A stretch of DNA of 64,000 nucleotides from Candidatus Poribacteria bacterium (GTDB taxonomy: Bacteria; Poribacteria; WGA-4E; JAJDTR01): contig CBDCTK010000002.1 of assembly GCA_965222225.1 (NCBI GenBank), positions 5,056,850 through 5,120,849 of the forward strand, written 5' to 3'. Under the pieces are notes generated by a model that saw only the letters and a list, made by a program, of their open reading frames with translations, was not told where the DNA came from and did not search any database. Both the position numbers and the translations under genes were made by a program. Numbering within the stretch: position 1 is the stretch's first letter; each line of letters opens with the position of its first letter. Positions 1,410 through 53,964 of the stretch are shown here, piece by piece.

Positions 1410-1977
1410 AAAAAGAAGGCTCATCGGAGTCCATCTCCCCGATGAGCCTAAATTGAAATGCCAAATCCTTATGCCGAGCATGGCGTAAAAAGCCGATGAG
1501 GGCTTTTGGTCTGATTGTCTTCCATCGCGCCTTAGTCCGGTGAATAAGCGATAAAGCGAGATCCACGTTTACAACCGAATACTTTATTCATTTGAATCGG
1601 CGGTGCGCTCATGCCGAGTAGCTGGACGTGCATAGCCCCATGACCAACCGCGTGGACAGAAATTGAAGTCCAGCCGATTGACCACCATATAGCGACGCGG
1701 GATGTTGTGGTTAGGCTTTACTCGATGGACGATAGCGGGGAAGTGTGTTGCGACGTTAAGACCTTGGAATGCCGGAACTGGTTGGAATCGGAATGCGTTC
1801 GTTTGGCACAAAGGTACGTAAACGAGGAATTGAAAGGTTTCGCAAATTGATGTTTTGCGGAAAACCCCCCTCTATTTGCGAAAGAATTGCCTGAAATGGG
1901 AGTTGAAACGAGACAAATGAAGGTATTCTGTTTCAGAGTCAAATCACGGAATGTAGATGCCAGGCGATCTTAGGTCG

Positions 1978-2013
1978 GTTGCAGTCTATGCCCCGATGAA
2001 AAGGGGACTGAAA
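1978..2013 (+). repeat. 36-bp cassette-associated repeat, copy A
   Basis: GTTGCAGTCTATGCCCCGATGAAAAGGGGACTGAAA; near-identical copies at 2680 and 30346. Confidence 0.85.
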
Positions 2014-2119
2014 GTCGAGGCAGGAATGTCGATAAAGCCACCGAATCCACAATATTCGGCTGGTACGTGCGCGATATTACTAAGTTAGTATCTAAACCAC
2101 AGAAAAGGAAGGAGTTACC

Positions 2120-2662
2120 ATGAATAAAGGAATCAGACTCCAGAACGTGCTTCGACGCCTGCTCGTGGTAATACTCGGATTGCTCGTATGGGTTCTCGGA
2201 GTGGTTGTGGCGATCTGTGTTTTGATGCTCATTGGAAAGTATGCCTTCATGCCGATCTATACCGCAGTGAGCCAGCGCGTCACCCCACCGAATTATCAAG
2301 AAGAATGGTCTGGTCGGTGGACGGTAGGCATCAACAAACTCACAACATGGCACTTCCGCCGTGATGGGACATGGACAGTCTCACCTACGAACCCCTTCAT
2401 CATATCTGAAGAAGGCACGTATTCAGTCACCGACACCTCCTTCGTGCTTACCGCTGGCGTCGGCAGTTCGAATGTTGTTAGAGGAACTTGGAACACAATT
2501 GCGGACAAACTTGTCCTGTACATAGAGTCTACCTCGTCTTTCCCTTTTAATCGAGAAGCTCTTGTGTTCGACAAATATATTGAATCAATCGAAGAAAGAA
2601 AACAGCGGATAGGGCAGGAAGGCGGGGTAATGTCGCCGCCGCCGAAGCTAGGTTCTCAATGA
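2120..2662 (+). CDS. membrane-anchored hypothetical protein with beta-rich (lipocalin-like) soluble domain
   Basis: RBS AAGGAG; long N-terminal hydrophobic stretch; WSGRW / FRRDGTW / EGTYSV beta pattern. Confidence 0.7.
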   Translation: MNKGIRLQNVLRRLLVVILGLLVWVLGVVVAICVLMLIGKYAFMPIYTAVSQRVTPPNYQEEWSGRWTVGINKLTTWHFRRDGTWTVSPTNPFIISEEGTYSVTDTSFVLTAGVGSSNVVRGTWNTIADKLVLYIESTSSFPFNREALVFDKYIESIEERKQRIGQEGGVMSPPPKLGSQ

Positions 2663-2715
2663 AAAGCGGACTGAAATGCGTTGCAGTCTATGCCCCGATG
2701 AAAAGGGGACTAAAA
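2659..2715 (+). repeat. right half-site (2659-2676) followed by full 36-bp copy B (2680-2715)
   Basis: ATGAAAAGCGGACTGAAA overlaps the stop of the upstream gene; GTTGCAGTCTATGCCCCGATGAAAAGGGGACTAAAA follows. Confidence 0.85.
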
Positions 2716-2717
2716 GA

Positions 2718-2948
2718 ATGAAAGCCCCCACCCGCGAACGCATCAAAACCGGATTCAAGGTACTGGCAGTAGCCGTCGCCGTCTATGTCGTCATGGTCTG
2801 CGCCGGATACATCGCGCTGCTCAGAGCACCCATGCTCGCCGTCGCCAGCGTGTGGATTATATCCTTCATCACCGGATACATCGTTGAACATCAGAGTTGC
2901 ATTCACTGGCGCGATGAAAAGGGGACTGATCGGACGGTTGGTATATGA
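2718..2948 (+). CDS. small two-TM hypothetical protein
   Basis: ATG 2 nt after repeat B (MKAPTRERIKTGFKVLAVAVAVY...); two hydrophobic helices. Confidence 0.5.
   Translation: MKAPTRERIKTGFKVLAVAVAVYVVMVCAGYIALLRAPMLAVASVWIISFITGYIVEHQSCIHWRDEKGTDRTVGI
2911..2929 (+). repeat. right half-site of the 36-bp repeat
   Basis: GCGATGAAAAGGGGACTGA within the 3' end of the 2718-2948 ORF. Confidence 0.75.
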
Positions 2949-10872: not shown

Positions 10873-10983
10873 AAGCACTAAAGAGAAGTGACGCCGTTGC
10901 GGTTGTTAAGGTGAATCTGGTTAAGCATCTCAAATTAGGGTTTTTGTGGTTTGTTGATTTTTTTGCTGGGCAGGTATGTGGTT

Positions 10984-11729: not shown

Positions 11730-11750
11730 CGACTAACAACTGCTGAGAAA

Positions 11751-12842: not shown

Positions 12843-12978
12843 TGACAATTATTTCCCATAATATCAGTACATCGCTCAACATGAATTGGCACACAGAGAC
12901 CAGATTAATGAGTTACTCGGCAGAAACTTTTCTCGTTTAAGTAGGTTGATTGAAGGTTGAACCAAGGAGGACAGAAAG

Positions 12979-14067
12979 ATGGCGGCAACTGAGACACACA
13001 CGAATCCATCGGCAACCCGACGGAAAATGCCCGTAATTGATTGTGACATTCACAATGCCGTACCTTCGCACAAGGCGCTGCACCCGTATATGTCAGAGCG
13101 TTGGCGAAGGCATCTTGAAATGGTGGGGACCCCCGCTCGAAATGGCTCTTATATCCCGCGTGGCGTGCCATACGCGGCTAGAAAGGATGCCTGGCCCCCT
13201 TCCGGCAAAGCGCCCGGTTCGGACCTGAAGTTCATGCAAGATCAGCTGCTTGACCACTGGAACATCGAATATGGGGTTCTAAACTGTTTAATCTTCCAAG
13301 ATATGCGCAGCGTGGAATTCAATGCCGCGCTGTCGCGCGCAGTTAACGACTGGCAAATCGAGGAATGGATCAAGCCCGACCCAAGGCTGAGAGCGTCAAT
13401 CTTGGTTCCGTTTGAAGATGGCGACCTGGCCGCGGATGAAATTGATCGGCTTGGAGCTCACCCGGGGTTTGTGCAAGTCCTACTCGTCGCTCGCACGATG
13501 GAACCCCTTGGAAGGCGCCGCTATTGGAAGATTTACGAGGCGGCGGTGCGACATGACCTTACGATTGGGATTCACTTCGGCGGCCTCGGTGTTGGTTCAA
13601 TCACCTCTGCAGGCAAACCTTCACACTACATTGAAGACCATGCGGGGATGTGCCAAGTGTTTCAGACGCAAGTGACCAGTTTAGTGTGCGAGGGGGTCTT
13701 CGAACACTTTCCTACGCTTAAGGTGGTGCTAATCGAAGGAGGATTTGCTTGGTTGCCACCACTGATGTGGCGGCTTGAGCGCTCTTGGAAAATGCTGAGG
13801 GAGGAAGTTCCGTATTTGAAACGCTCCCCGTCAGAATATATTCGTGAGCATTTCTGGCTAAGCACGCAGCCGATGGAAGAACCACCCAAGCAGGAATATT
13901 TTCAGCAGTTGCTTGAGCATATCAACGCCGATGAAAAATTGATGTTCGCAACAGACTATCCACACTGGGACTTTGATTCGCCGGGCCATGCGCTTCCCAA
14001 GAACCTAAACCCCAATTTGAGGCGGCGAATCATGGCTGAGAATGCTCGTGCCCTGTACCAATTCTAA
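12979..14067 (+). CDS. amidohydrolase_2-fold protein, close paralog of 11751-12842
   Basis: IDCDIH, GIHFGG, LIEGG, FATDYPHWDFD; long near-identical blocks shared with the preceding gene. Confidence 0.85.
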   Translation: MAATETHTNPSATRRKMPVIDCDIHNAVPSHKALHPYMSERWRRHLEMVGTPARNGSYIPRGVPYAARKDAWPPSGKAPGSDLKFMQDQLLDHWNIEYGVLNCLIFQDMRSVEFNAALSRAVNDWQIEEWIKPDPRLRASILVPFEDGDLAADEIDRLGAHPGFVQVLLVARTMEPLGRRRYWKIYEAAVRHDLTIGIHFGGLGVGSITSAGKPSHYIEDHAGMCQVFQTQVTSLVCEGVFEHFPTLKVVLIEGGFAWLPPLMWRLERSWKMLREEVPYLKRSPSEYIREHFWLSTQPMEEPPKQEYFQQLLEHINADEKLMFATDYPHWDFDSPGHALPKNLNPNLRRRIMAENARALYQF

Positions 14068-14950: not shown

Positions 14951-15110
14951 CTGTAGGAGATCAAGCGAACGAATAGTGAGTGCGATAGAGATCTTCTCGA
15001 GGTCGCGACTTCTTATCGCGAGCAGAGCTCGCTCCTACAGGAGACGCACAATAAAGGGATTTCTATCGTCCTCGCTGTTCGCTCGGTTAATCTATTCGCT
15101 CCATTGATCG
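14951..15110. repeat. GTAG-type REP / REPIN-like composite
   Basis: CTGTAGGAG (14951) / CTCCTACAG (15032-15040) inverted ends; GTAGGAGCGAGCTCTGCTCGCGA palindrome on -; GGGATTTCTATCG family copies at 14959-14993 (-) and 15056 (+). Confidence 0.7.
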
Positions 15111-16710: not shown

Positions 16711-16956
16711 GAACCTGTTTGAATAATCGATAGGAAAGCCATTTTTGGTCATTTGTGGGAAGTTCTTCCATGTCTTAATTGTTGCCTGCTACGTACCTGT
16801 CGCCCCGCTGGGGCTTAGGTGCACGGGGTTTTGGCGTTTCTATACACCTTCATGGATCTCTATCGCAGTCGCTATTCGCTCCCTTGATCCCACTCTGGGG
16901 CTTTTAGAGGCTGGTGCGCAGTGCGCACCCTACAAATGTACTTTTCAAACAGGCTC
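16711..16956. mobile_element. 246-bp non-autonomous MITE (IS5/PIF-like)
   Basis: 13-bp TIRs GAACCTGTTTGAA / TTCAAACAGGCTC (12/13 match); TAA on both flanks (16708-16710, 16957-16959); no transposase. Confidence 0.65.
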
Positions 16957-20169: not shown

Positions 20170-23100
20170 TTACGACAACTCTTTTAGCAGTATTTCCGCT
20201 TCCTTCAAATCCGTGGCATCGAATCCCTCTGTGAACCAACTATAAACATGGGCGAGAATTTCGCTAGCTTCTGAGGTTTTTACCTTGTGCTGATGCAATC
20301 TGCCTAGACTGACTGCTGCTCGTAACTCCAGGATTTTTGCTTCCTGCCGATGCGCGACCTGGATTGCCCGCCGAAAACAGTCTTCAGCATCGGTTTCGGG
20401 GCTGCCGTCCATCAACAGCAGTTCTCCTTTGAGCCGGTATAATTCCGCTTCGTATAGACGCTCGTCGTTTTGGGCAACGGTATCTAATGCTGCATCCAAC
20501 GTCTTCAAACCTTCCGCAATTTGCCCTGCCCTTGCATACGCCTGCGCCAAGACACCAAGATAGAACGGAAGGAATATCGCCGCACCCGTCGAACGCCATG
20601 CGTCCAATCCGCCGCATATCTCCTCAATTCCTTCCGTAAACTGTCCGTGCTTGGACAATGCCCATCCCCGCAAGATTACCCCTGCGGCACGCCACATTGG
20701 GAATCCGTGCTCCGTTGAAAGCGAGATTAATTTCTCTGCCTGTGCTTGGGCTGAGTCCGCCTCACGATGGCACTGATAGTGTAGGAAGGTTGCGAAGAAT
20801 AGCGTAACCACTTGGCTGAAAGCATGCGGCAGCTCCTCAGAGATTATCTGAGCTTCCGCACTATAACGCAACGCGCGTTCCGGATATCCCAAGAACCAAA
20901 GGGTTGTAGCCGCATAACATAGACAGGTCATTCCCGGCTCTGCCATGTAGTGAAGGAAAGCATGTGATCGATGATACTGTGGCTGGTACTGGGCAATCCC
21001 TTCTTCAAGGTAAGCGTGCGCCATGGCAAGTTCCCCAAGATAGAATAACGTCGCTCCCATTGCCCGATGTGCTTCAAGCATCAGCGCCACGTCCTGTTGC
21101 TGTCTAGCAAGTGCAATACAGCGTTCACCTAGTTCGCGCGCTGAGTCCAATTCCGCGCGCACCAAATAACTCAGCCAAAGTCCAAACAGCAACGGAAATC
21201 TTAGCAATTTCAGTTCTTCGGACGTGGTTTCGCCGATGCGCTCGGCGAGTTCTTGGGCTCTAATGTAGATTGCCGCTACCTCTGGTGCGCCATACCCTTT
21301 CGTAGCAACCATAGCAGGCCCTAGTGTGATTTGCAATACGAATTCTTGGTGCATTCGCTCTGGGGTTTCAGGCAGTGCCTTAATCAGCTCTAGCCCCTTA
21401 ATTAGGTGATTTATCCCTTCCAAGTTTGCCGACCTCTCAATTGCGCGCTGTCCCGCTTGTTGCCAGTAAGAAATCGCTTGTTCGCTTTTGGCTTCCGTGA
21501 AGTGGTGTGCCAATAATTCGGGCTGTGTTTCAGCGAATTCGGGGAACTGTTCAACCAACGTTGTGGCGATTTGAAGATGATGCCACTCCCTTTTATCCTT
21601 AAGCAAGGACTGATAGGCAGTTTCTTGAATTAGGGCGTGTCTAAATCTATATGTTACCCCGATTTGAGAAGCACCGGCTCGATCAAGAAGCTGTGCTTCC
21701 AGCAGCCGAGTTATTTCGCGTTGCAGTAGGGGTTCGCTTTGCCGCGAGATTGCCTTTAGCAGTTCATAATCTACTTCGCGTCCAAGCGTAGCTGCCAGTT
21801 GCGCAATCTCTTTCGCCGTGCCCAAGCGATCCAACCGTGCCATTAGTGAGTCGTGCAATGTGGCAGGGATGGCAAGTTGTGGCAACGAACGCGTCAACTC
21901 ATAGTGGCCGTCAACCTCTTTCATCCAAGCTGACTCTAGCACCATTTTGGTCAACTCTTGAGCGAAAAGCGGAATTCCGTCAGTCTTTGACACGATTTGC
22001 TCAGTGACGGACGCAGGCAATTCCTTTCCATCTGCAACCTCAACAACCATATCTGTCACCTGCCGCTGGGTAAGTCGATTTAGCGAAATCGACGTAAGGT
22101 GCGGTGGAACGACCCACTCCGGGGTGAAGAGCGAACGATACGCCAACAATATAAAAACGCGGGAAGATGCGGCTCTCTCGATCAATAGAGAGATTAGTTC
22201 TAGGGTAGATGGATCAACCCAATGTAAATCTTCAACCAAAAATAGTACCGGGCGCTGGGCTGCCTTCTTCAATATAACCCTGAGTAACCCCTCCAAGGTT
22301 TTCTGCCTTTGTTGCTCCGGAGGCAGATCGGATGGCGTATAGCTATCGCCGAGTTGTAAGGAGAAAAGACGGGCGAAGAGCGGTACCATTTCATCAAGAG
22401 GCAGGCTGTATTTCGCCAAGAAATGCTCCAACTTACCTAAGTTTACCTTCGCGGAGTTCGCACGATCGAACTGCAATTCCTCTCTTTGAAAGAGTTCAAC
22501 AATCGGATAAAATGGACTGTTTTGGTAATAGGATGTACAAAAACATTCCATCAGCGTTGCGTCTGAGCGGCTCACAACATGTTGCTTCAACTCCTGAACC
22601 ACACGAGATTTGCCTATTCCCGGTTCACCAGTTAAGGTAACCGCTTGTCCCTCCCCGGACGCCGCCTGTGCCCAACGTTCGATTAGAAGTTCAATCTCCT
22701 GCTCTCGGCCAACAATCGGGGCTAGTCCGGCATCGACCGTCATACGAGGGCGCCCCGTTAAGAGCGTTTCACCCAGAACTTGATACAGACGCATTGACTC
22801 GGAAATGCCTCTTAGTGACTGAACGCCCAGATCTCGGCATCCAAAGGAATCGAGCACCAATCGGTGTGTGGTAGGTCCTATTACTACGGTATTCGGCTCG
22901 GCAATCTCTTGCATTCGTGCCGCGACGTTCGGCATTTGCCCAACGACCGCCATTGATTCCAATTCGCCGCCCTTGCTCATGTCGCCAGCAACGACCATGC
23001 CGGTGTGAATGCTTAAGCGAACGTCAAGCGTGACCTCCATTGTTTGTTGAATACGTGTTTCAAGCTTTTCAATCGCATCTACGATTTCAAGCGCGGCGTG

Positions 23101-23460
23101 TACTGCACGGTGAGCGGCATCTTCGTGCGCAACCGGATATCCGAAATAGATTAGAAGTCCATCTCCAAAATACCGCGCGATGTGCCCCTCAAAATGGCGC
23201 ACCGCCCTTGCGCAAACTGCCTGATACTGCTGCAGTAGTCCACGAAGCTCTTCGGGATCCAATCGTTCCGCGAGTATGGTCGAACCTACAAGATCGCAGA
23301 AGAGCACGGTCAATTGACGCCGTTCTGCGTCAATCTCTTTCGATTGTTCATCGGTCTGGTTGAGTTCAAAAGCGCTCGTCGGTGAAGCTAGAGACGAACC
23401 GCATTGTCCGCAGAACTTGAACTGTGCGGGATTCTCAAATCTGCAATTGGCGCATATCAT
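20170..23460 (-). CDS. zinc-ribbon + class III adenylate/guanylate cyclase + AAA (STAND) ATPase + TPR protein
   Basis: CANC...CGQC; ERRQLTVLFCDLVGST; YFGDGLL; GEPGIGKS Walker A; LVEDLHW Walker B; C-terminal TPR helices. Confidence 0.9.
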   Translation of the reverse strand: MICANCRFENPAQFKFCGQCGSSLASPTSAFELNQTDEQSKEIDAERRQLTVLFCDLVGSTILAERLDPEELRGLLQQYQAVCARAVRHFEGHIARYFGDGLLIYFGYPVAHEDAAHRAVHAALEIVDAIEKLETRIQQTMEVTLDVRLSIHTGMVVAGDMSKGGELESMAVVGQMPNVAARMQEIAEPNTVVIGPTTHRLVLDSFGCRDLGVQSLRGISESMRLYQVLGETLLTGRPRMTVDAGLAPIVGREQEIELLIERWAQAASGEGQAVTLTGEPGIGKSRVVQELKQHVVSRSDATLMECFCTSYYQNSPFYPIVELFQREELQFDRANSAKVNLGKLEHFLAKYSLPLDEMVPLFARLFSLQLGDSYTPSDLPPEQQRQKTLEGLLRVILKKAAQRPVLFLVEDLHWVDPSTLELISLLIERAASSRVFILLAYRSLFTPEWVVPPHLTSISLNRLTQRQVTDMVVEVADGKELPASVTEQIVSKTDGIPLFAQELTKMVLESAWMKEVDGHYELTRSLPQLAIPATLHDSLMARLDRLGTAKEIAQLAATLGREVDYELLKAISRQSEPLLQREITRLLEAQLLDRAGASQIGVTYRFRHALIQETAYQSLLKDKREWHHLQIATTLVEQFPEFAETQPELLAHHFTEAKSEQAISYWQQAGQRAIERSANLEGINHLIKGLELIKALPETPERMHQEFVLQITLGPAMVATKGYGAPEVAAIYIRAQELAERIGETTSEELKLLRFPLLFGLWLSYLVRAELDSARELGERCIALARQQQDVALMLEAHRAMGATLFYLGELAMAHAYLEEGIAQYQPQYHRSHAFLHYMAEPGMTCLCYAATTLWFLGYPERALRYSAEAQIISEELPHAFSQVVTLFFATFLHYQCHREADSAQAQAEKLISLSTEHGFPMWRAAGVILRGWALSKHGQFTEGIEEICGGLDAWRSTGAAIFLPFYLGVLAQAYARAGQIAEGLKTLDAALDTVAQNDERLYEAELYRLKGELLLMDGSPETDAEDCFRRAIQVAHRQEAKILELRAAVSLGRLHQHKVKTSEASEILAHVYSWFTEGFDATDLKEAEILLKELS

Positions 23461-23586
23461 AAGTAGAATGTCGGGCTTATTTTCCAGTAAGTTTGATGGG
23501 AACAAAGACATAAACGGAGGACAGCATTATGCACCACCTTCATAGTGAACTCAGCATGCACTTGGCAGCACCGAGTTATTTCGCGC

Positions 23587-25228
23587 TCAAAATGTCTGAG
23601 GCCTAAGAATCTTTCCATTGATGTGCGTCCACTTACCCTCATCAACATGATACACTGCAACCTCGTTTTCAAAATCGTCATAGAATCGCACGTAAATGCC
23701 ATTGGCAGAATTACTCCAGTTGGCTTGATTAGCGAAATCCTTGACTGAAAAACCATCCGCAGGGCGCAGAATATACCACGTCTTCGATTCATCGTCCCAA
23801 TCGTATCCCTCAGTTTTAAGTAATTCTTTGACTGCTGTCGTGGGTCTAGAGCCATGTCCGTATTGGTTGCCTACCCGGATGAGAATTTTCGAGGCGCACG
23901 CCGGAGGGGGATAATCCGACCATTTTAGCTTGGAGAGTTCCATGTTTTCTTCCAAATCCTCAAGAAATGGCGAAGGGTTGCCGCCCTTAGTCAAAATATA
24001 CAGTTCCTCGACAGCGCGGGTCAACGCTACATAAAAAAGACGGCGTTCTTCATCAATAATGAGACGTTCACTGTCTCCAAAAACGCGATTAAAAAACCAA
24101 TTGGGGTGCACTAACGGATAGCGTCTAATGTTTGCATCAAGCACGATTACTGCATCCTTCTGAAGTCCTTTGAATTTATGAACCGTCGAGATTTTGACTT
24201 TTTTCGCATGATCACTGGACAGCCTACTGCATAACACTGCAAGAAAGCGATCGAGTCCGCGTTTACCTGACAACATTCCCCAGTTTTCATAATTAATGCT
24301 CCAAGGCTCACTATTTATTCGGCTGAGTAGGACGACATTCTTGCCATCGTCTATAATTTTTCTCACCAGACACAATAAAGCATGGGTAGAGTAGTCTCCG
24401 AGGTTTGGGTAATTTTCATGGAGAATTCGAGCTAAAGGAAAAGTGTCAAGATCGGCAATCACAACTTTTCCCTTAACCGTTTTGTGGGCCAGAGCAGACT
24501 TACCCCGGCCTTGCATCAATGCGTTCCCGACATCCACAACCTCCCCAACCGATCGGTAATTTCTAATCACATGAAGTTTGCGAGAATTCTGAAACGCCTG
24601 GCAGAAATTCTTGAAAAAGTGGAGATCAGAACCAGCAAAGCTGTTTATTGCTTGCCAGTCGTCACCAACGCAGAAAAAGCGTGCATGCGTATTCTTCTCA
24701 CGAATTGCTTTTGTCAGCCGATAAAAGAGTTCCGAGAAATCTTGATATTCATCAATGAACACATATCGAACATGCTTCAGGTTACAAGTGCGAGGTCGGT
24801 GTGGAGCTATCTTTTCCTTATAGTGAAATTCCGTTTCCCCATTCTTAATGATTTCCACAGCTCGCTGCACCAGCCCATCAAAATCTTCTTCTTCTGGTCG
24901 TTGTAAACCGTAGGCATCAAAACGTTCCAAATACGATCTGTAGAAATCTTGAACAAGATTCAAGAAATGCTCCTCGACATCGTTGATACAATTGTGGTCC
25001 TGTATTTTTTTTGAAAGTTCCGTTAAGGTTAGAGAGAGTTTTCGGCATCGTTGTATAAATCCTCTAACAACCTCTGTAAAGTCGACTATAGCGCCGCCTT
25101 TTATCTGATGCCATATCTGATTATCGCTGAGTCGAACGCACGAGATTCCCAGAGCTTCAAGGTCCTGCTTCAACAAAGCACAAAAATCGTCCTCTCCTCT
25201 TCTTACATCATGTGGAGAATAATCAAGG
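23587..25228 (-). pseudogene. 5'-truncated UvrD/HelD-like SF1 helicase
   Basis: FIDEYQD, VGDDWQAINSFAGSD, NYRS, STVHKFKG, ERRLFYVALTRA present; Walker A absent; the frame stays open up to the IS1595 end at 25229. Confidence 0.75.
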
Positions 25229-25361
25229 GGACTTAGTAGTTAACTGCTTTTTGGTCGATTTGCTTGCTTTTCTCTTCTTAATGTACAATCATTTTAGACA
25301 GTGTTCGGAATCTTGATTCACACTAAAATACATCTCTATAAGAGAGAAATGGAGGCATATC

Positions 25362-25484
25362 ATGTTGACCAAGCGTTTGTACATGCTCGCGGGAGCATTG
25401 CGGGTTATCTGCGGGATTTTAATTTCCAACACTATGGGATTTTCAGCACACCATGATGTTGTCGTTGACAGAATATACCGATAG
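25362..25484 (+). CDS. possible 40-aa passenger ORF inside IS1595
   Basis: RBS GGAGG; MLTKRLYMLAGALRVICGILISNTMGFSAHHDVVVDRIYR*, signal-peptide-like. Confidence 0.25.
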   Translation: MLTKRLYMLAGALRVICGILISNTMGFSAHHDVVVDRIYR

Positions 25485-25502
25485 CCAAACAATTCATGTG
25501 GC

Positions 25503-26357
25503 TCAGGTGAAGCATTCATCAAAAAATCTTATGAAAATCTCATCATCTTTTCTGCGATTATATTTCCAGCAAGACTCCATGATATACAGTGGCAGCCACT
25601 TCTTGCTGTAGTGATGATGCGTTCCGTAGAATGACCTCTTGACACAAGCCCAAAACGACTCGATGGTGTTGGTGTGAGTTACGCCGTCCTCAGAAACATA
25701 TCTCTCTTGGTGATGGATAACATGTCTTTCGATATCTTCGTCCAGACTATTGTAAGAGCGAAATTCATCAGTCATAAGAATAGACTCATCGGGTGAGACA
25801 TTGCTAAGGATGAATTCTCTGATATTTTCACCAGATAGAACCTTCATGAATTTAGCAACCACCCGACCGCCTCTCTCGACTACGCCGATGACGGGAGATT
25901 TATTTGTGCCTCTACCTCTCTTAGATTTTGCTCTGGGTTTGCCGCCGACATAGGTTTCGTCCGCTTCAACTATCCCTTTCAGCAATTCATCACTATCACT
26001 CATTTTCTCACGGAGGCGCATTGCCATATACCAAGCGGACTTTTGATTCATGTCCAAGTCACGAGCAAGCTGACAACTCGATATGCTTTTCTTGGCATTG
26101 GAAAGAATTGAGATAGCCAAAAACCATTTCTGGAGAGGTATCTTGGTACCATGGAAGATGGTTCCTGCTGTAGCCGAAAAGCTAGATTCACAATCGTAGC
26201 AATTCCAACCAGTAGTAATGTCGTTTTTGTTCTTGCGTCCAACTTTTTCACTGCCACAGTGGATACAGCAAACACCGTCCTTCCAACGTTTTTCCTCTAT
26301 AAATCTGAGACAAGATTCTTGATTTGGAAACTCTTTCATAAGATTCAAAATGTCCAT
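25503..26357 (-). CDS. IS1595-family transposase (intact)
   Basis: CIHC/CYDC zinc ribbon; GTIFHGTKIPLQKWF; VEADETYVGG, LMTDE, HTNTIESFW, KYNRR. Confidence 0.9.
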   Translation of the reverse strand: MDILNLMKEFPNQESCLRFIEEKRWKDGVCCIHCGSEKVGRKNKNDITTGWNCYDCESSFSATAGTIFHGTKIPLQKWFLAISILSNAKKSISSCQLARDLDMNQKSAWYMAMRLREKMSDSDELLKGIVEADETYVGGKPRAKSKRGRGTNKSPVIGVVERGGRVVAKFMKVLSGENIREFILSNVSPDESILMTDEFRSYNSLDEDIERHVIHHQERYVSEDGVTHTNTIESFWACVKRSFYGTHHHYSKKWLPLYIMESCWKYNRRKDDEIFIRFFDECFT

Positions 26358-29728: not shown

Positions 29729-29937
29729 GAGTGGGGAGGTGTTACAATTACGACTTGTGCTAGTTGATATAGGCTATGCGAAAACGAAGTCTTTGATTTC
29801 GATGAACTGATAGAGCGTTGGGATGACTGGAAGCGTTACAGACATCCCAGTTTTTTATCGATATTTCCTCTCCCTAATATATAGCACGATTGGAATTTTC
29901 CATCTTACAAAAAAAAGACTGAGCATGCCCACTCATT

Positions 29938-29973
29938 GTTGTAGTCTATGACGCGATAAAAAACAGACTAAAA
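29938..29973 (+). repeat. 36-bp repeat copy D (degenerate)
   Basis: GTTGTAGTCTATGACGCGATAAAAAACAGACTAAAA. Confidence 0.7.
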
Positions 29974-29994
29974 ATTGGAATAAGGGTAAACATA

Positions 29995-30282
29995 ATGGAA
30001 AATACGACAGTAATGCTTGTGGCGATTCTAGTAGCGGTTTGGGGGTTGATAATTGGCATCATTGCTCATTAGTGGTATATCACCAAGGCTTTGAACTCAG
30101 AGGCATTGAACTCAAAGATAAACCGAGATGACTTGAAACGCCTAAGAGATGATTTCAACCGCTTGAGAAATGACATGAGTGTTCGCCAGTTGCTGTTTCA
30201 GCATGTGAGTGACCACGAGAAGCACGCCAACGCTGGCCAGGTGCGCAAGCATGGACGACGAACTAATGATAGAAAAGGGTGA
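29995..30282 (+). pseudogene. TM + coiled-coil small protein interrupted by TAG (30070-30072)
   Basis: MENTTVMLVAILVAVWGLIIGIIAH*WYITKALNSEALNSKINRDDLKRLRDDFNRLRND... in one frame. Confidence 0.5.
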
Positions 30283-30345
30283 GATGTACCGATGGAGCAT
30301 TGTGGGGTAAAAGTTAGTCGCATAGGGTTCTATTTCAACGGGGCG

Positions 30346-30381
30346 GTTGCAGTCTATGACGCGATGAAAAGCGGACTGAAA
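30346..30381 (+). repeat. 36-bp repeat copy E
   Basis: GTTGCAGTCTATGACGCGATGAAAAGCGGACTGAAA, 13 nt before ATG 30395. Confidence 0.85.
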
Positions 30382-30394
30382 AAAAGGATCCGAT

Positions 30395-31009
30395 ATGTCG
30401 TTCAAATCGATGTTGAATGAAATTGGACAGGAGTTGCCAGCACTAAATCTGACTGGAGTACTCGTTGTTTTCGGCATTGGTTTTTCAAGGTTAATCTATA
30501 AATTAGTGAGATTAGCGGAACATAAATGCTTCGCGAAACGTTTTCTCGCAAAATATACTCAAATGCTAAATGATGAGCAGACCGCCGCCGAATCGTATGA
30601 ATGGTTACTTGACCATCTATCCCAGATAAAAAGGGAAATGAGAGCACACGGAGATAGTAACTATGCTCACATAAGTCACATCATATCAACTTTACATGAT
30701 CGCCCTCCGGTACTCGCTCCCAATTTGGATGATGTTTGCGTAGATTTAAGGAAATATATCGGTACACTTTCTTATTCGATCCGAATACAGTGCAAACATG
30801 TTTGGCGTTTTCCTTTGTGGCCAATTGTATTGCCAATGCAAGTCGTAGAGCTGGTTGTGGTTGATATAATACTGCGATTTAGCAAAACCGCTGACTTTAA
30901 TTCGCACAGTAGCCATCCCGTGATCTGGACAATCAAGATAATATTTGCCGTGTATACCTTTATCGCTGGCTGGGATGCAGTCGTGAAAAAAATTAAAGAG
31001 ATTTTCTGA
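30395..31009 (+). CDS. hypothetical membrane protein
   Basis: 204 aa with an N-terminal TM and two C-terminal hydrophobic segments. Confidence 0.6.
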   Translation: MSFKSMLNEIGQELPALNLTGVLVVFGIGFSRLIYKLVRLAEHKCFAKRFLAKYTQMLNDEQTAAESYEWLLDHLSQIKREMRAHGDSNYAHISHIISTLHDRPPVLAPNLDDVCVDLRKYIGTLSYSIRIQCKHVWRFPLWPIVLPMQVVELVVVDIILRFSKTADFNSHSSHPVIWTIKIIFAVYTFIAGWDAVVKKIKEIF

Positions 31010-31043
31010 GTTGTAAACCTGTCGTTTCTTGTCGTTTACACTG

Positions 31044-31073
31044 GTTATAGTCTATGTCTTGATGAAAAGGGGG
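31044..31073 (+). repeat. 36-bp repeat copy F (partial)
   Basis: GTTATAGTCTATGTCTTGATGAAAAGGGGG. Confidence 0.65.
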
Positions 31074-31333
31074 CGTCGGTGCCATCATTCTACCTGCCAA
31101 GTTGTACGAACCCGCCATTTTGGATAAACCTCGTTGGCCAATTAGTGACCAAAAGACTCCTCCGTTTGTCTAGTCGTTGGTTATTCACTTGTTCGTTGAA
31201 ACACAAAACACATCTCAATGGGCAATGAACAGGTGAATAACCACACTTTGTATTCCGCAGAAATGTGTGGATACCTACCCGAACAGTTAAGCAGAACAAC
31301 TCACCGAACTCTACCCTGAATAAGGAGACCTCT

Positions 31334-32254
31334 ATGACCGATTTTATCGATTTTCACGACATCTTCCATGAAATACAAGAAAAATCCAAGGATGGAAACT
31401 ACATTTACCGCGGGGAACCTAATTGCACAGAATCAGATAAACACGGCGGAAAAGTATCGTCTCGTCTGTGGCGTGAATGTGTGAAACATAACATTCGTGA
31501 TGTCGAAGACTTCCAGAAAACAAGAATTGAATACGCAAAAAGACATACAACGTCCGACGCACAGGAGTGGGCGATACTTACTGAAATTCAACACTACGGT
31601 GGTGATACAAACCTTATCGACTTTACGACAAGTTGCTTCGTCGCTCTCTTCTTTGCGTGCAATGGTCATTTCGACAAAGATGGGCGTGTAATCGTACAAA
31701 ACCTGAATGAACACCAATCCCGTATTATGCGACCTAGTGGCCCAGTTAATCGTGTTCATGCCCAAAAAAGTATTTTCATGCGTCACGAAAAGGGTTATTT
31801 TGAACCCAAGGAAAGTGAACTAATCAAAATCCCGTCAAAGTTCAAAGAAGAATTGCTAACACACCTAGACAGATATCATGACATATCTGTCGTAACTATC
31901 TATAACGACCTTTATGGTTACATCCAATACCAACACTACCATGGTACTGCCGAAGAGCATTTTTCTAAGGGTATAGGCTGTGAACAAAGCAATGAGTTGG
32001 TAAGAGCTATGGAACATTATGACCGGGCCATTCAATTAAATCGCAATTTCGCGGGGGCATATTTCCGTCGCGGACAACTTCACTACAACAAAACTGCACC
32101 CGAAGACCGCGCGAGAGCTGTTGACGACTTTCGGAGAGCTGTGGAGATAGTGTCCGATTATTATCATGATTTACCGCCAGATATCCAAAAAATAATATTT
32201 CCTCCGCTTCCTAATTTATCCATACTAGGACAATCCACTAACCAAACACTGTAA
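31334..32254 (+). CDS. FRG domain protein with C-terminal TPR
   Basis: YIYRGE, QHYGG.TNLIDFT....VALFFAC, RVHAQKSIF; AMEHYDRAIQLNRNFAGAYFRRG TPR; RBS AAGGAG. Confidence 0.8.
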   Translation: MTDFIDFHDIFHEIQEKSKDGNYIYRGEPNCTESDKHGGKVSSRLWRECVKHNIRDVEDFQKTRIEYAKRHTTSDAQEWAILTEIQHYGGDTNLIDFTTSCFVALFFACNGHFDKDGRVIVQNLNEHQSRIMRPSGPVNRVHAQKSIFMRHEKGYFEPKESELIKIPSKFKEELLTHLDRYHDISVVTIYNDLYGYIQYQHYHGTAEEHFSKGIGCEQSNELVRAMEHYDRAIQLNRNFAGAYFRRGQLHYNKTAPEDRARAVDDFRRAVEIVSDYYHDLPPDIQKIIFPPLPNLSILGQSTNQTL

Positions 32255-32324
32255 ACTCAACGCTGAAGCGATGTGACGGCTTACCCCGCCCGTTACAATC
32301 CACATATGCCTACGAAAGGCCTCC

Positions 32325-33755
32325 ATGATCGAGAATGATGCATTAGAAAACCCTGTTTTTGAATACTACTGGCTCACACATGCAAATGCAGACGCGGTAT
32401 TTGAACGGTTAAAAAAGCAAAGATCGCATTGCTCCAAACTCGTTAGTAGTAAAGGCGAAATAGTTGAAAAGACATTAGTAGAGCGCCATGAAGCTTTAAT
32501 AAACCTAGGTTTGGCATTGTATTACAGGCTTTCAAGCGAAACCGCACTCAGCCTTTATAGGAACAGCGATACGACGATAAAGCGTGCGTTATTAGCTGGC
32601 CCCTCCGTCCGAGAAATCGGCTTTCCCAATTTCTGGTTGGACGATGTCCTAGAGGAAATATTATCTTCTTTCGATGAAAATGTTGAATTCGTGAAATCGT
32701 TGTTTTCAAATGAATTCATTCCCTATGAAAAAATATTCAAGTTATACGAAAAACAAAGACCTTTTGACGAATTATCGGAAAAACAGTGGCTATGGGCCAT
32801 AGATTTTACTACGCAAAATCCTCGCATGGATGGGTTGTGTTATCTCCACGAAGTATTCGACGGTTCTTCACCCTATAGTTCTTTCCTCGAATTCGGGTTG
32901 CGTTATGATGTATGGTGCTCCGCTTGGAATCTATTCGCCTCTGTACCGGTAAACTATTATTCTGCATACGTTCTTGCAGGTCTGGGCAAAATTCTAACTC
33001 CATGCGGCAAGAAGTGGTTTCCAGGGCCTGGCAATATAGATGTGCGGCAGACAATAAAACGATGGGAAAAATCTGAAGACGAGGATGAATTGGACTGGTA
33101 CCGCCAATGTCGAACGGCTTTAGGTCGATTATTGGAGGAAGATGAGTTAAAAGACAGCGATGATGTTGCTTTGAGGCAAGCGTACTATAATCAACTTGAC
33201 TGGCATCTCTTAAAACCCGATGACGTAAAGCACGCCTTTGAAAGAGATAAGGAGAATTTTCTTGATGTCGCTATAGAAAACGACCTATTTTATGTAAATG
33301 AAGAGATTAGGACAGCATTGCGACATTGGTGTTGGCAGTATGGTCGTGATGCTAGTCGCTCATCAAAGGAGCATTGCCAGAGGTTCGACACGCGTGAGAC
33401 ATGGTTAAAACGAAAGCATCCCGAATGGTTTACCGAGTATGGAGACAATCCCCCCTTTGACCAAGTTGGCGATTTACGCTTACGAGCTGAAAAACGTCTT
33501 GTGTTCCTTCAAAAAGAGATTAAAGCACTCAGAAACATAGTAATCGGAATAGAGTCCGAATTCAAAGATAGTGAAGATGATGACAATTGGACGTTAGGAG
33601 ATCAGAGACAACCGCTGCTCAATAGAATAAAATTTGAGATATTGCACTCAAATAAACAAATGATGTCACACATTATGTCTAAGTTGTATTCAATCCTTGG
33701 CTGGATAGTTGTTACGCTTATTGTGGGTGCCATAGTAATCTTGAGTGTCGATTAG
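32325..33755 (+). CDS. hypothetical protein with C-terminal TM anchor
   Basis: 476-aa open frame with RBS AAAGG; ends in ILGWIVVTLIVGAIVILSVD. Confidence 0.65.
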   Translation: MIENDALENPVFEYYWLTHANADAVFERLKKQRSHCSKLVSSKGEIVEKTLVERHEALINLGLALYYRLSSETALSLYRNSDTTIKRALLAGPSVREIGFPNFWLDDVLEEILSSFDENVEFVKSLFSNEFIPYEKIFKLYEKQRPFDELSEKQWLWAIDFTTQNPRMDGLCYLHEVFDGSSPYSSFLEFGLRYDVWCSAWNLFASVPVNYYSAYVLAGLGKILTPCGKKWFPGPGNIDVRQTIKRWEKSEDEDELDWYRQCRTALGRLLEEDELKDSDDVALRQAYYNQLDWHLLKPDDVKHAFERDKENFLDVAIENDLFYVNEEIRTALRHWCWQYGRDASRSSKEHCQRFDTRETWLKRKHPEWFTEYGDNPPFDQVGDLRLRAEKRLVFLQKEIKALRNIVIGIESEFKDSEDDDNWTLGDQRQPLLNRIKFEILHSNKQMMSHIMSKLYSILGWIVVTLIVGAIVILSVD

Positions 33756-34056
33756 AATAACCCCTACTTCACATGAAAAGGTGTTTGCAAGAACTTCAAA
33801 CAAAAACTCGGCTACACTGACTTTGGCGCCGCCATCATGCTCATCGGGATGCTCGCCGCCAACCTGACCTCAATTACCGCCCTAAACAATGGCCATTTTG
33901 ATTCAATCACCCGTACAAGATAAAAGTCTTGGGTCTTGAGGGTGCTACCGATATTGAGGGAGGGATGATCGATTTGAACACTGCATTGGTAAAGAAACGA
34001 TTATTCATGCGTGAACCCACTCCACCCTTCCTTCTCATCCACAACAATTAAAGGAG

Positions 34057-35286
34057 TTGGCTACAATATTTTACAAGTGTAAAAAGTCTAAGCTAACGCT
34101 TAATTCACATTATGTGGTATCTGTACAACTTTTCGAATCAAACAGTACTATAGTAGACATCTTTCCAAAATGGAATTATGTAGTTACAGTAATCTTGGAG
34201 ATTAGAATAACTACACTGTTTGGCAACTTGTCGAGGAGTGCCTTAAGTTAACAATCGCGGCAATCACATTCCATGTTTTCCCATAGTTGCGATGTTTGCC
34301 TCGATAGATGTCTTTGGTGATGCGAAAAATCTTACACCATCTGACGATATGCTCAATACCAACCCTTTGTGTTGCCAACCGTCGGTTGAATTGCTTTGCC
34401 TCCTGAGTCAAGGCCCACTCCGACATTTCTTGATGGGCGTCGAACTATTGGCATACAGTTTGGCTATGCCCTGATAACCACTGTCAGCCAACTTCTTAGT
34501 TTCGGGGGAAATCGCCAGACGGCTTTCCTTCAGAATTCTGTAATCGTGAACACTCCCTTTGCGGCAGATAACCGATAATATTTCTAACATCGCCAAACAC
34601 GCAATCAATTGAACTTTTATGGTGTGCCGTTTTTTTACCGCTGTAGTAGACACGCTGTCCTTTTGTTGGACGTTCAATGGGTCGCTCGGTGACATCAATG
34701 ATGATTGTTTGGAGATTGCTCTCTAATAAGTGCTTTCGATTCTTCATCGAAAGCACTTTAACTAACACATCAAGTATCTGATGATAGATTTTATTTGCAT
34801 AAGACTCACTGATACCAAACTCCAAGCCTAATCTGGCAAAGGTTGGATAGTGGTGCAAATAGGTGAATGTCAGGTGAATGTCAATAGAAGGCGATCGGTC
34901 AATGCCACCTCCGATTTCTTTCCTCGTTTCTTCATCGGCCGTTCTTCTCGAACATTTTCGAGGTGAGTAGCCACACGCTCCAAAATTAGGTTGAAACCTG
35001 TCTTGTCAACACCAACCGCCCGCAGAAATTGCTCATCTGACAACTTTACTGCTTTTTCAAATTGACTCATGGGTATCCTTTCTACAATAGAAGATGTTGA
35101 AAGGATATAACGTGAAATCAAGCCAAATAGGTACTTATTTTGGAAAGATGTCTAGTAGCGAATTTATCTAAAGAAACTGAAACCCATGCCGTGACGGAGA
35201 GGTTCCCAAGTCTTGCAGCAGCGCAAGAAGCCTATGATGAAATCGGTGATTGGCTAGCGTGGGTTAAACAATTCAAAAGTTCATAA
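34057..35286 (+). pseudogene. 75-aa ORF split by the IS5 element
   Basis: Removing 34155-35153 and one AGT copy restores one frame MATIFY...NSTIVANLSKETETHAV...WVKQFKSS*. Confidence 0.45.
34155..35153 (-). mobile_element. IS5-family (ISL2/IS702-like, DDE_Tnp_4) element, transposase inactivated
   Basis: Perfect 17-bp TIRs AGACATCTTTCCAAAAT; 3-bp TSD AGT; transposase from ATG 35070 to 34211 in four ORF pieces (IIIDVTE, YYSGKK/KRHT, LADSGYQG, R..IEH). Confidence 0.9.
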
Positions 35287-35488
35287 TGGCACTACGTCCC
35301 TACCCCGAATCCGCGTTAATCGTGTGCGGCGCATCCAGCGTCGTCAGAAGTCAGTCGACTGTTGACTGAATCATTACAATCCTCACAACAGTCTTGAAAA
35401 TAGCATTCTTTATCGTAGACATCTTGGCTCAACTCGAACGGTGAAACGATGCCTATTTGCGTGTCTAACCGTAAGGCCGTAAGGGTTG

Positions 35489-36214
35489 TCACAGTATTTC
35501 GTTCTGACACTCGTTCAGAATTTCGTTCGCTATCAATAGCGACTCAAATGTCCCCGCATCAGTCCACTTACCCGATAAGATGTCGTATTCCAGCTCGGAG
35601 CGCTTGATATATTCGTTGAGGACATCGGAGATTTCAAATTCCCCGCGATCGGATGGCTTCTGCTGTCGAATGAGGTCGAAAACCTTTTCATCGTACATGT
35701 AGTAGCCAATCACGGCATAATTGCTTTTAGGGTTACCCGGCTTTTCTTCGACTGAGATTATTTTCTCTTCGTCCAATGCGGCAATCCCGAATTCCGTCGG
35801 TTTGCTCACCTCTTTCAGTAGAGCTCGCGCTCCCGTTTCCTGCCTCCGAAAGCTGTCAACATACGGCTTAATTGACCTGACAGCAATGTTATCCCCAAGG
35901 ACAACAACAATCCTCTCTCCCTTCGCGAAATCTTCGGCGAGCAAAAGCGCGTGCGCTATGCCTTGCGCTTCCTCTTGAACCTTGTAGGTGAAGTCCACGC
36001 CGAAGGATTTTCCGCTTCCAAGCAGATTGACAACGTCTCCCATGTGCTCTGTGCTGGTTACCACAAGAATCTCCGTGACGCCAGCCGACACCAACTGCTT
36101 TATTGGATTAAATATCATCGGCTCCCTTCCAACGGGAAGCAGATGTTTGTTCGTGACTTTTGTCAACGGGTAGAGGCGCGTTCCCTTACCGCCCGCTAGG
36201 ATAACACCTTTCAA
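35489..36214 (-). CDS. sugar-phosphate nucleotidyltransferase (RmlA/SpsI-like, short form)
   Basis: MKGVILAGGKGTRLYPLT...NKHLLPV; Q.EAQGIAHA; LGDN; WTDAGT.ESL. Confidence 0.9.
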   Translation of the reverse strand: MKGVILAGGKGTRLYPLTKVTNKHLLPVGREPMIFNPIKQLVSAGVTEILVVTSTEHMGDVVNLLGSGKSFGVDFTYKVQEEAQGIAHALLLAEDFAKGERIVVVLGDNIAVRSIKPYVDSFRRQETGARALLKEVSKPTEFGIAALDEEKIISVEEKPGNPKSNYAVIGYYMYDEKVFDLIRQQKPSDRGEFEISDVLNEYIKRSELEYDILSGKWTDAGTFESLLIANEILNECQNEIL

Positions 36215-52439: not shown

Positions 52440-52554
52440 GTCGGGAATGCCGTAGGTGGGCATTCCGATGCCCGACAGTAGGAATTGAATTAAGGCTATC
52501 GCCTTGGGATTTCTATCACATTCGACATTCGCTCAGTTAATCGATAGAAATCCC
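52440..52554. repeat. GTAG-type REP plus GGGATTTCTATC inverted-repeat unit between convergent mqnD and queC
   Basis: GTCGGG...GTAGGTGGGCATTCCGATGCCCGAC; perfect 12-bp IR GGGATTTCTATC (52506) / GATAGAAATCCC (52543-52554). Confidence 0.7.
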
Positions 52555-53865: not shown

Positions 53866-53964
53866 GCCCTTCTAATTAAAGTTGAACAATCTCCGAATCA
53901 CGATGGTCGGGAATTGGAATTCCCTTCTACATGCGACATTTTGACGCAAAACTTAGGATATAAC

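What the first reader, a model, noticed from the sequence alone, without database searches (positions are those of the whole stretch)
29938..33755. Same repeat heads successive accessory genes in a second island, with compensatory stem changes
Seen: copies D (29938), E (30346) and F (31044) each precede a different unrelated gene (TM/coiled-coil, membrane protein, FRG-TPR), 28 kb from locus 1 and in the same orientation as the genes. The inner stem covaries: CCCC/GGGG in A and B, CGC/GCG in E, TCTT/GGGG (G-T wobbles) in F. The GATGAAAA loop and 5' GTT(G/A)(C/T)AGTCTATG are conserved. A degenerate right half (AAAAAAGACTGA, about 29911) lies just before D, as in locus 1. Inference: selection acts on the top-strand structure, and the island was built by repeated capture at these sites.
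Basis: partly seen in the sequence, partly recalled or inferred. Interest (0 to 1): 0.75.

Follow-up and report, generated by a model that had tools for sequence, protein, structure and literature searches.

The report
Stray CRISPR repeats between accessory genes
The repeat that heads the genes of this small island is the genome's own 37-base CRISPR repeat, left as single and partly decayed copies between accessory and defence-type genes, which makes the region look like an integron although no integron machinery was found.

Summary
A covariance model finds exactly six copies in 64 kb: A–C at 1978–2932 and D–F at 29938–31080. All lie on the strand of the genes.

The element is a CRISPR repeat, not an attC-like site. 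In ten strain variants and a Candidatus Poribacteria genome, the same 37-mer follows the same leader (window 1840–1977). There it forms arrays of 1–7 repeats with unique spacers of about 36 nt that differ at the leader end.

The "stem" is the crRNA hairpin (4 bp, 8-nt loop, as in Rfam CRISPR-DR32). Only one pair truly covaries (C16:G27 ↔ G16:C27). D, F and C no longer fold.

Locus 2 (29750–35493) is one 5.7-kb block that is present or absent as a whole; an empty site joins 29749 to 35494. It holds two broken cassettes and ends in an IS.

Cassette exchange at repeats does happen elsewhere. One cassette is missing in four strains, leaving a B/C hybrid repeat, and homology blocks begin inside repeats. 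Homologous genes also occur without the repeat.

Best reading: these are relic CRISPR repeats that serve as portable homology in a variable island. A Cas6-processing role is possible but untested. No cas gene or integrase was seen.

The parts
1840..1977 (+). CRISPR leader of locus 1
   Evidence: About 90-100% identical to the sequence that precedes real arrays in L003 and L007-L014.
1978..2014 (+). Repeat A: the canonical 37-nt CRISPR repeat, and the only repeat left of this strain's array
   Evidence: Identical to the array repeats of L003 and L007-L016. Covariance model score 58.5 bits.
2015..2050 (+). Oldest ('anchor') spacer, shared by all strains
   Evidence: The same sequence follows the last array repeat in every strain variant, while the leader-side spacers differ.
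2120..2662 (+). 180-aa gene lying inside the array region. Its stop codon falls in a 3' half repeat.
   Evidence: Found in 13 contigs, always after the array. No Pfam hit.
2658..2677 (+). 3' half repeat (AATGAAAAGCGGACTGAAAT), 2 nt before B
2680..2716 (+). Repeat B
   Evidence: One mismatch to the canonical repeat. In L028 the same variant is the last repeat of a real array.
2718..2948 (+). 76-aa gene for a protein with two transmembrane helices. It starts 1 nt after B and reads through C.
   Evidence: Absent, with a B/C hybrid repeat left behind, in L007, L011, L012 and L015.
2896..2932 (+). Repeat C: a hybrid (v2-like 5' half, v1 3' half) with a broken stem
29750..35493 (.). Locus 2 island: one 5.7-kb present/absent block between the Bax-inhibitor gene and the nucleotidyltransferase gene
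   Evidence: Contigs join 29749 directly to sequence matching 35494-35523. In DNA runs X3 and X5 the island's depth is well below that of its flanks.
29903..29922 (+). Degenerate 3' half repeat, 15 nt before D
   Evidence: The only AAAANNNGACTGA in the window outside the known copies.
29938..29974 (+). Repeat D, decayed: loop GATAAAAA and 3' stem lost
   Evidence: 46.1 bits. No hairpin in the fold, z = -0.78.
29995..30282 (+). Transmembrane plus coiled-coil ORF, broken by an in-frame TAG at 30070
30346..30382 (+). Repeat E: intact hairpin of the CGC/GCG variant
   Evidence: 58.8 bits. Folds at -8.7 kcal/mol.
30395..31009 (+). Gene E: 204-aa membrane protein from a small family (11 clusters)
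31044..31080 (+). Repeat F: 5' half and loop kept, stem reduced to G-U wobbles, 3' handle lost
   Evidence: 34.7 bits. Fold z = 0.08.
31334..32254 (+). FRG-TPR gene, a candidate defence gene
   Evidence: Pfam FRG and TPR. PADLOC PDC-S15, E = 7e-20.
32325..33755 (+). 476-aa gene of unknown function with a C-terminal transmembrane helix; no repeat in front of it
33772..33923 (+). Possible last repeat remnant (ATGAAAAGG), followed by a fragment without a start codon
   Evidence: The fragment (33789-33920) is 58% identical over 45 aa (E = 2e-13) to the gene that follows a leader-plus-repeat in L001.
34154..35156 (-). IS5-like insertion sequence (two-ORF transposase) at the right end of the island
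   Evidence: HTH_Tnp_4 hit. Multi-copy depth, with loose ends at 34154 and 35154-35158.

Best explanation
**What it is.** D, E and F (and B and C in locus 1) are single copies of this bacterium's own 37-nt CRISPR repeat. The host is most likely a sponge-symbiont Poribacteria.

**The hairpin.** The conserved 4-bp stem with the GAUGAAAA loop, followed by the 8-nt ACUGAAAG tail, has the shape of a Cas6-type crRNA processing hairpin. Its one compensatory change separates two repeat subfamilies that arose in real arrays.

**How the single copies arose (inferred).** In these genomes CRISPR arrays sit in variable accessory/defence islands and break up. Deletions leave half repeats and repeats without spacers. 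DNA carrying a repeat recombines with another repeat (Campbell-type or unequal homologous exchange over the 15-37 shared bases). Genes therefore end up flanked by repeats and can be lost again, leaving a hybrid repeat.

**Locus 2.** It is a piece of such a repeat-punctuated gene row that moved, or was lost, as one 5.7-kb block together with an IS element. It is now decaying: D and F no longer fold and two of its cassettes are broken. E is intact and the island RNA is present, so E could still be cut by Cas6. That step is inferred, not shown.
For: **It is a CRISPR repeat**
- The same 37-mer forms a 6-repeat array with spacers of about 36 nt behind a conserved leader in a Candidatus Poribacteria genome.
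- In ten strain variants, the leader of window 1840-1977 is followed by 1-7 perfect repeats. Their spacers differ at the leader end and share the oldest spacer.
- Rfam CRISPR-DR32 and DR10 align over all 37 positions with the same hairpin, though below the gathering score.

**The arrays are fragmenting**
- L028 arrays contain partial repeats and spacers of 2-16 nt.

**Exchange happens at repeats**
- The B-C cassette is absent in 4 strains, which carry a B/C hybrid repeat instead.
- A copy of that cassette, 89% identical and bounded inside repeats, lies behind a second array.
- Homology between gene E and its L017 homologue starts at about 30358, inside the repeat, and ends at the stop codon.

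**Locus 2 moves as a block and is decaying**
- There is an empty site 29749|35494, and island depth is far below flank depth.
- D, F and C do not fold.
- The D cassette has an in-frame stop, and the last cassette lacks a start codon.

**Transcription**
- The island and locus 1 are covered by metatranscriptome contigs.
Against: - No cas gene was found in the window or within 5-10 kb of the gene used to fetch each of the 25 related loci, so neither the CRISPR-Cas type nor the presence of Cas6 is shown.
- All 90-plus copies lie on the gene strand, and many sit 1-22 nt before a start codon.
- The 3' part of the repeat plus the 5' UTR of gene E is 87% identical to a homologue whose protein is only 51% identical. 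Pure decay does not predict this; it hints at an RNA-level role.
- Whether the B-C difference is an insertion or a deletion cannot be told.
- No spacer matched IMG/VR.
Confidence: 0.6

Rival explanations
1. **RNA-processing sites.** The single repeats are kept because Cas6 cuts the long island transcript at each of them. This would release one mRNA per gene, with a defined 5' end (the 8-nt handle plus a short UTR), or would tie expression of these genes to CRISPR-Cas activity.
For: - Every copy is on the gene strand.
- Start codons lie 1-22 nt after the repeat for B, D, E and several cassettes in other loci.
- No terminator-like site separates the cassettes on the + strand.
- One RNA contig spans 29750-34178.
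- The 3' part of the repeat and the UTR of gene E are more conserved than the gene itself.
- The small transmembrane gene sits between terminal repeats in all strains.
Against: - D, F and C cannot form the hairpin, and half repeats cannot either.
- Homologues of gene E and of the 129-aa gene exist without the repeat.
- Two repeat-headed cassettes are pseudogenes.
- No RNA end data are available. Contig ends at repeat positions 10 and 30 are assembly artefacts of k = 31.
- No Cas6 gene was seen.
Confidence: 0.22
2. **Integron-like capture.** The repeat folds as single-stranded DNA and is the attachment site of a site-specific recombinase that inserts promoterless cassettes one after another.
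For: - The cassette layout, co-orientation and short distance to the start codon fit.
- The transmembrane cassette looks like a circular permutation of 'gene plus one repeat'.
- Cassette families recur at different chromosomal spots.
Against: - No tyrosine recombinase or other integrase was found in 64 kb or in 25 loci.
- The site lacks the attC order RYYYAAC...GTTRRRY; GTTGCAG sits at the 5' end and does not fit GTTRRRY.
- The site is a CRISPR repeat with spacers and a leader.
- Ends of partial copies scatter over positions 13-26 rather than one crossover point, and similar partial copies arise inside arrays.
- Locus 2 moved as a block.
Confidence: 0.07
3. **Anti-CRISPR decoys.** The copies are solitary repeat units of an integrated mobile element. 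They would act as RNA anti-CRISPRs (Racr) transcribed together with small anti-defence genes.
For: - Solitary repeats on the same transcript as a small gene are described for RacrIC1-AcrIC5. Such repeats were also proposed to let elements integrate into arrays (PMC10651486).
- Locus 2 is a mobile block with an IS.
Against: - No phage or plasmid genes are in the island.
- The genes are membrane and defence-type proteins (FRG/PDC-S15), not typical small soluble Acr proteins.
- Locus 1 copies lie in the host's own array behind its leader.
- D and F are decayed.
- No hit in IMG/VR.
Confidence: 0.06
4. **Cas1-Cas2 integration of gene-length DNA.** The adaptation machinery (or a reverse-transcriptase-linked Cas1) inserted gene-sized DNA as giant spacers.
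For: The B-gene-C layout is repeat-insert-repeat.
Against: - B and C differ at 7 positions and C is a hybrid of two subfamilies.
- Most cassettes are flanked by a half repeat on one side.
- All inserts are in one orientation.
- No cas1 gene was seen.
Confidence: 0.03

Closest known systems
CRISPR arrays of Cas6-processed systems (37-nt repeats with a small 3'-proximal hairpin, e.g. Rfam CRISPR-DR32/DR10; 'array fragmentation' as described for Anabaena, bioRxiv 10.1101/2020.04.14.041012)
   Same: The length, the hairpin position (4 bp, 8-nt loop) and the purine-rich 8-nt 3' tail all match. A leader is present. In sister strains spacers turn over at the leader end. Arrays are scattered and lie far from cas genes.
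   Different: In the window, no two repeats are separated by a normal spacer. The intervals are 179-2,700 nt and hold genes. Half repeats and hybrid repeats are common. No cas gene is in sight.
Solitary repeat units / RNA anti-CRISPRs (Racr) of phages and plasmids (PMC10651486)
   Same: A single CRISPR repeat lies in an intergenic position, on the same strand and apparently the same transcript as a downstream small gene. Integration into arrays through repeat homology was proposed for such units.
   Different: Here the repeats are chromosomal and lie beside the host's own leader and array. They come several in a row, are partly decayed, and are followed by membrane and defence-type genes.
Integron cassette arrays (attI/attC, IntI)
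   Same: The genes form a co-oriented row. Each gene is bordered by a structured repeat. Single cassettes are present or absent, and the cassette border lies inside the repeat.
   Different: There is no IntI, no attC core sites and no fixed crossover point. The repeat belongs to a CRISPR array.
CRISPR repeat-like regulatory RNAs (crlRNA, CreA/CreTA; bioRxiv 10.1101/2023.03.03.530964)
   Same: Repeat-derived elements lie outside regular arrays.
   Different: Those elements are mini-arrays: two repeat-like units around a spacer-like guide, next to cas genes. Nothing of that layout is present here.

Membership tests
CRISPR repeat | Occurs as a regularly spaced array with unique spacers | tested here: met
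   Met in relatives. L003 has 6 repeats with a period of about 73 nt. L007-L016 and L026-L028 have 1-10 repeats. In the window itself only single copies remain.
CRISPR repeat | Conserved leader, with spacer gain or loss polarised to the leader end | tested here: met
   The leader (1840-1977) is conserved in 10 loci. Strain-specific spacers lie next to the leader, and the oldest spacer is shared.
CRISPR repeat | Similarity to a curated CRISPR-DR family | tested here: inconclusive
   CRISPR-DR32 scores 27 bits (gathering score 48) and DR10 scores 23.5 bits (gathering score 39). The alignments are full length with the same hairpin.
CRISPR repeat | cas genes in the same genome or locus | tested here: not met
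   No cas domain was found in the window ORFs scanned or in the gene tables of 22 loci. The rest of the 5.6-Mb genome could not be read.
Integron attC site | R''(RYYYAAC)...R'(GTTRRRY) core sites in that order, within an imperfect long palindrome | tested here: not met
   GTTGCAG is at the 5' end and does not fit GTTRRRY. There is no RYYYAAC partner, and the stem is only 4 bp.
Integron attC site | Adjacent intI integrase with attI and Pc | tested here: not met
   No integrase domain in any ORF scanned.
Solitary repeat unit / Racr | A truly solitary repeat on a phage, plasmid or prophage | tested here: inconclusive
   The island is mobile as a block and has an IS, but no phage or plasmid genes. 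Other copies lie within 400-700 nt.
Solitary repeat unit / Racr | Expressed as a small RNA that binds Cas proteins and inhibits interference | not testable with these tools
   Only assembled RNA contigs were available.
REP/BIME elements with RAYT transposase | Many copies dispersed through intergenic regions genome-wide, with a RAYT gene | tested here: not met
   There are six copies in 64 kb, confined to two islands. A strict pattern hits only 2 loci in the related 5.6-Mb genome. No Y1 transposase was found.

The most novel reading that the evidence does not exclude
In Poribacteria the CRISPR array may double as a gene-cassette platform. Under this reading, the leader promoter drives promoterless accessory and defence genes placed between repeats. 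Cas6 cuts the long RNA at each repeat into single mRNAs. Recombination at the repeats (host recombination or the adaptation machinery) inserts, removes and moves cassettes between arrays. That would be an integron-like system built from CRISPR parts.
Probability: 0.15. Interest if true: 0.85.

Novelty: new variant of a known kind. Interest (0 to 1): 0.5.

Why it matters
The finding replaces a supposed new recombination site with a known element, a CRISPR repeat. It also shows an arrangement I did not find described in the papers I searched. In one lineage of sponge symbionts, rows of co-oriented accessory and defence-type genes are punctuated by single, half and hybrid CRISPR repeats. A small membrane-protein gene sits between the terminal repeats of the array in every strain.

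If the repeats only provide homology, this shows how CRISPR arrays can seed variable gene islands and how arrays fall apart. If Cas6 processes these transcripts, it would be a natural case of CRISPR machinery organising the expression of other genes.

Either way, annotation pipelines that look only for regular arrays will miss these copies. They may also call spurious genes across them.

Tried and rejected
- **Metagenome and IMG/VR scans with the repeat pattern.** Only chance hits (L004-L006) or none.
- **Protospacer search.** Two spacers searched in IMG/VR gave no match.
- **Exact-protein look-ups for locus 2.** Gene E, the FRG-TPR protein, the Bax inhibitor and the FmdB-like protein are not on record. 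Strain variants of locus 2 could therefore be seen only through run contigs.
- **A fixed breakpoint in the loop.** Half copies begin or end between positions 13 and 26. This looked site-specific at first. However, only central breakpoints are detectable as 'halves', and similar partial repeats occur inside real arrays. I rejected it as evidence for a site-specific cut.
- **Outer helix CAGU/ACUG.** It is predicted by folding but broken in the v2 subfamily and in the T8C variant that forms active arrays. I do not treat it as conserved.
- **RNA contig ends at repeat positions 10 and 30.** These are explained by k = 31 assembly at a 37-nt repeat and are not processing sites.
- **Rfam at gathering threshold.** It gives only RNase P in the window.
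- **Literature.** No paper describing genes between CRISPR repeats in Poribacteria was found.


Full report
**1. The observation**

The window holds a 37-nt element with consensus GTTGCAGTCTATGCCCCGATGAAAAGGGGACTGAAAG. There are six copies, all on the + strand.

| Copy | Coordinates |
|---|---|
| A | 1978-2014 |
| B | 2680-2716 |
| C | 2896-2932 |
| D | 29938-29974 |
| E | 30346-30382 |
| F | 31044-31080 |

I built a covariance model from 20 distinct copies and ran it with filters off. It finds these six and nothing else above 12 bits. The core pattern gives 6 matches against 0.72 expected.

There are also two 3' half copies. One is at 2658-2677, 2 nt before B. The other is at about 29903-29922, 15 nt before D. 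The second is the only AAAANNNGACTGA in the window outside the known copies.

Each of D, E and F is followed by a gene on the same strand:
- D is followed by a transmembrane plus coiled-coil ORF that carries an in-frame TAG.
- E is followed, 12 nt on, by a 204-aa membrane protein.
- F is followed, 253 nt on, by an FRG-TPR protein.

**2. What the element is**

A scan of one genome per species found the same 37-mer as a six-repeat array with spacers of about 36 nt in a Candidatus Poribacteria chromosome (L003). About 130 nt upstream of that array matches window 1840-1977.

A look-up of the 180-aa protein of window 2120-2662 returned ten strain variants of locus 1 from long-read metagenome assemblies. 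In them the same leader is followed by 1-7 perfect repeats. Spacers next to the leader differ between strains. The spacer farthest from the leader (window 2015-2050) is shared by all. This pattern fits an array that gains spacers at the leader end.

The window strain keeps a single repeat (A). Rfam's CRISPR-DR32 and DR10 align over all 37 positions with the same 4-bp stem and 8-nt loop, although below their gathering scores.

The element is therefore a CRISPR repeat. The + strand is the transcribed strand. The last 8 nt (ACUGAAAG) are where a Cas6-type enzyme would leave the crRNA 5' handle; that follows from general knowledge of such repeats and was not tested here.

I found no cas gene in the window or in any fetched locus.

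**3. The stem changes**

On 20 distinct copies, one pair really swaps. Position 16:27 is C:G in 8 copies and G:C in 7, with two wobble forms and three broken forms. The swap separates two subfamilies:
- v1 with CCCC/GGGG.
- v2 and E-type with CGC/GCG.

Contig ends hint at an array of the E-type.

The whole-structure score exceeds most shuffles, but not all (26 of 500 reach it). The predicted outer helix is not kept. It is broken in v2 and in the T8C variant, which forms long arrays in L028.

The canonical repeat and E fold well (-9.9 and -8.7 kcal/mol). D, F and C do not fold better than shuffled sequence. The structure is thus a property of the CRISPR repeat family, and the locus 2 copies D and F are losing it.

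**4. Locus 1 and its relatives**

Downstream of the array, every strain has the same row: the 180-aa gene, the half repeat, B, a 76-90-aa gene for a two-helix membrane protein that starts 1 nt after B and reads through C, then C, then a large M36 peptidase gene.

In L007, L011, L012 and L015 the B-C interval is missing. A single hybrid repeat remains, made of the 5' part of B and the 3' end of C.

An 89% identical copy of that cassette, again bounded inside repeats, lies behind a second leader-plus-array 4-6 kb upstream. In L028 the cassette follows the last repeat of a genuine array directly.

The region between the two arrays is a mosaic of small genes (DUF5662, HicA and unknowns). It is punctuated by full, variant, half and hybrid repeats.

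L028 arrays themselves contain partial repeats and spacers of only 2-16 nt. Half repeats therefore arise by deletions inside arrays.

**5. Locus 2**

Metatranscriptome and metagenome contigs from several samples carry the island at about 99% identity. Other contigs run from the Bax-inhibitor side up to 29749 and then continue with sequence that matches window 35494-35523, at the end of the nucleotidyltransferase gene.

In DNA runs X3 and X5 the depth of 29822-34150 and of 35154-35558 is 4-9. The flanks are at 20-42.

So 29750-35493 is one present/absent block. Its borders are not at repeats. Its left end is a gene fragment that continues differently in other contigs. Its right part is a multi-copy IS5-like element.

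Two cassettes inside the block are broken: the D cassette and a fragment without a start codon at 33789-33920. That fragment is 58% identical to a gene which in L001 follows a leader-plus-repeat. The FRG-TPR protein matches the candidate defence family PDC-S15.

**6. Do genes and repeats travel together?**

Gene E belongs to a small family of 11 clusters.
- In L017 (51% protein identity), DNA homology with the window starts at about 30358, inside the repeat, and stops at the stop codon. The stretch from the 3' part of the repeat into the first codons is 87% identical, against about 65% for the gene.
- In L001, L019 and L022 the homologue has no repeat upstream. It has another conserved element there instead ('motif 2'), and a repeat or half repeat 60-125 nt after its stop.

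These homologues sit in islands with AAA_15/21, ThsB-TIR, GmrSD, helicase-MZB and DUF5662 genes.

All copies found by the model in 13 further loci are on the gene strand.

**7. Reading**

Shown:
- The identity of the element as a CRISPR repeat.
- Fragmentation of the arrays.
- Loss or gain of one cassette, with a hybrid repeat left behind.
- Cassette borders that lie inside repeats.
- The block nature of locus 2, and its decay.

Inferred:
- The exchanges use the repeats as short portable homology.
- Cas6 recognises the intact copies.

The strict co-orientation, the short distance to start codons and the conserved repeat-UTR of gene E keep an RNA-processing role alive. No RNA end data were available, and contig ends at repeat positions 10 and 30 are assembly artefacts.

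An integron-type mechanism is unlikely. There is no integrase, no attC core, no fixed crossover and no serial build-up at this site.

A Racr-like role is possible in principle (PMC10651486), but the gene content and the decay speak against it.

**8. Novelty**

The element is known. The arrangement is, as far as my searches show, not described. That arrangement is rows of genes punctuated by single CRISPR repeats across a bacterial lineage, plus a small membrane-protein gene between terminal repeats in every strain. I rate it a new variant of a known kind, of moderate interest.

Noticed in passing
window 1490-1580; L001 7036-7149 (-); L007 6812-6925; L017 7216-7329 and 8997-9110; L019 5783-5896; L022 5890-6003 and 6792-6905: A second conserved element of about 90 nt ('motif 2') heads cassette genes in place of the CRISPR repeat. 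It reads ...GGTTGCCAAT.CCCGGCAAC.GCCCTTGTCGCTCCTTGAAGCGGAG..AAGCGATAAAGCGA....TTTACAA and always lies on the gene strand. RNAalifold predicts two hairpins, and 5 of its 14 predicted pairs show both-sided changes. It has no Rfam match.
   Followed up: partly
window 9397-9431, 9608-9642, 15058-15092, 16855-16889, 52508-52542: A 35-nt intergenic repeat family (GATCCCTATCGTGGTCGCTATTCGCTTCCTTGATC) lies between metabolic genes. It may be related to motif 2 in reverse orientation.
   Followed up: no
L028 3086-3673 and 4752-4999: Real arrays of the T8C repeat variant contain partial repeats, a repeat with its loop deleted, and spacers of only 2-16 nt. Gene callers placed ORFs across them.
   Followed up: partly
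L007 8222-8934 (also L009, L011, L012): A perfect single CRISPR repeat sits between a HicA toxin gene and the next gene (147 aa). The repeat ends 21 nt before that gene's start codon.
   Followed up: no
window 31259-31312: Contigs of all four metatranscriptome runs X13-X16 skip these 54 nt, in the 5' UTR of the FRG-TPR gene. The four DNA runs laid (from other samples) keep them. A strain deletion and RNA processing cannot be told apart.
   Followed up: no
window 20170-26357 (-): Defence-island-like neighbours: a 1113-aa nucleotide cyclase + AAA_16 + TPR protein with PycC-like hits, a UvrD/GajB-like helicase, and an IS1595 transposase.
   Followed up: no
window 9787-14067: Three paralogous amidohydrolase genes of about 360 aa in a row, 60-70% alike at the DNA level. 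Strains differ in what lies between them.
   Followed up: no
window 53495-53866 (+): Bacterial RNase P RNA class A, 301.8 bits.
   Followed up: no
L026 5001-5204: The small transmembrane gene has an in-frame 63-nt deletion between two GGATACATCG direct repeats.
   Followed up: no
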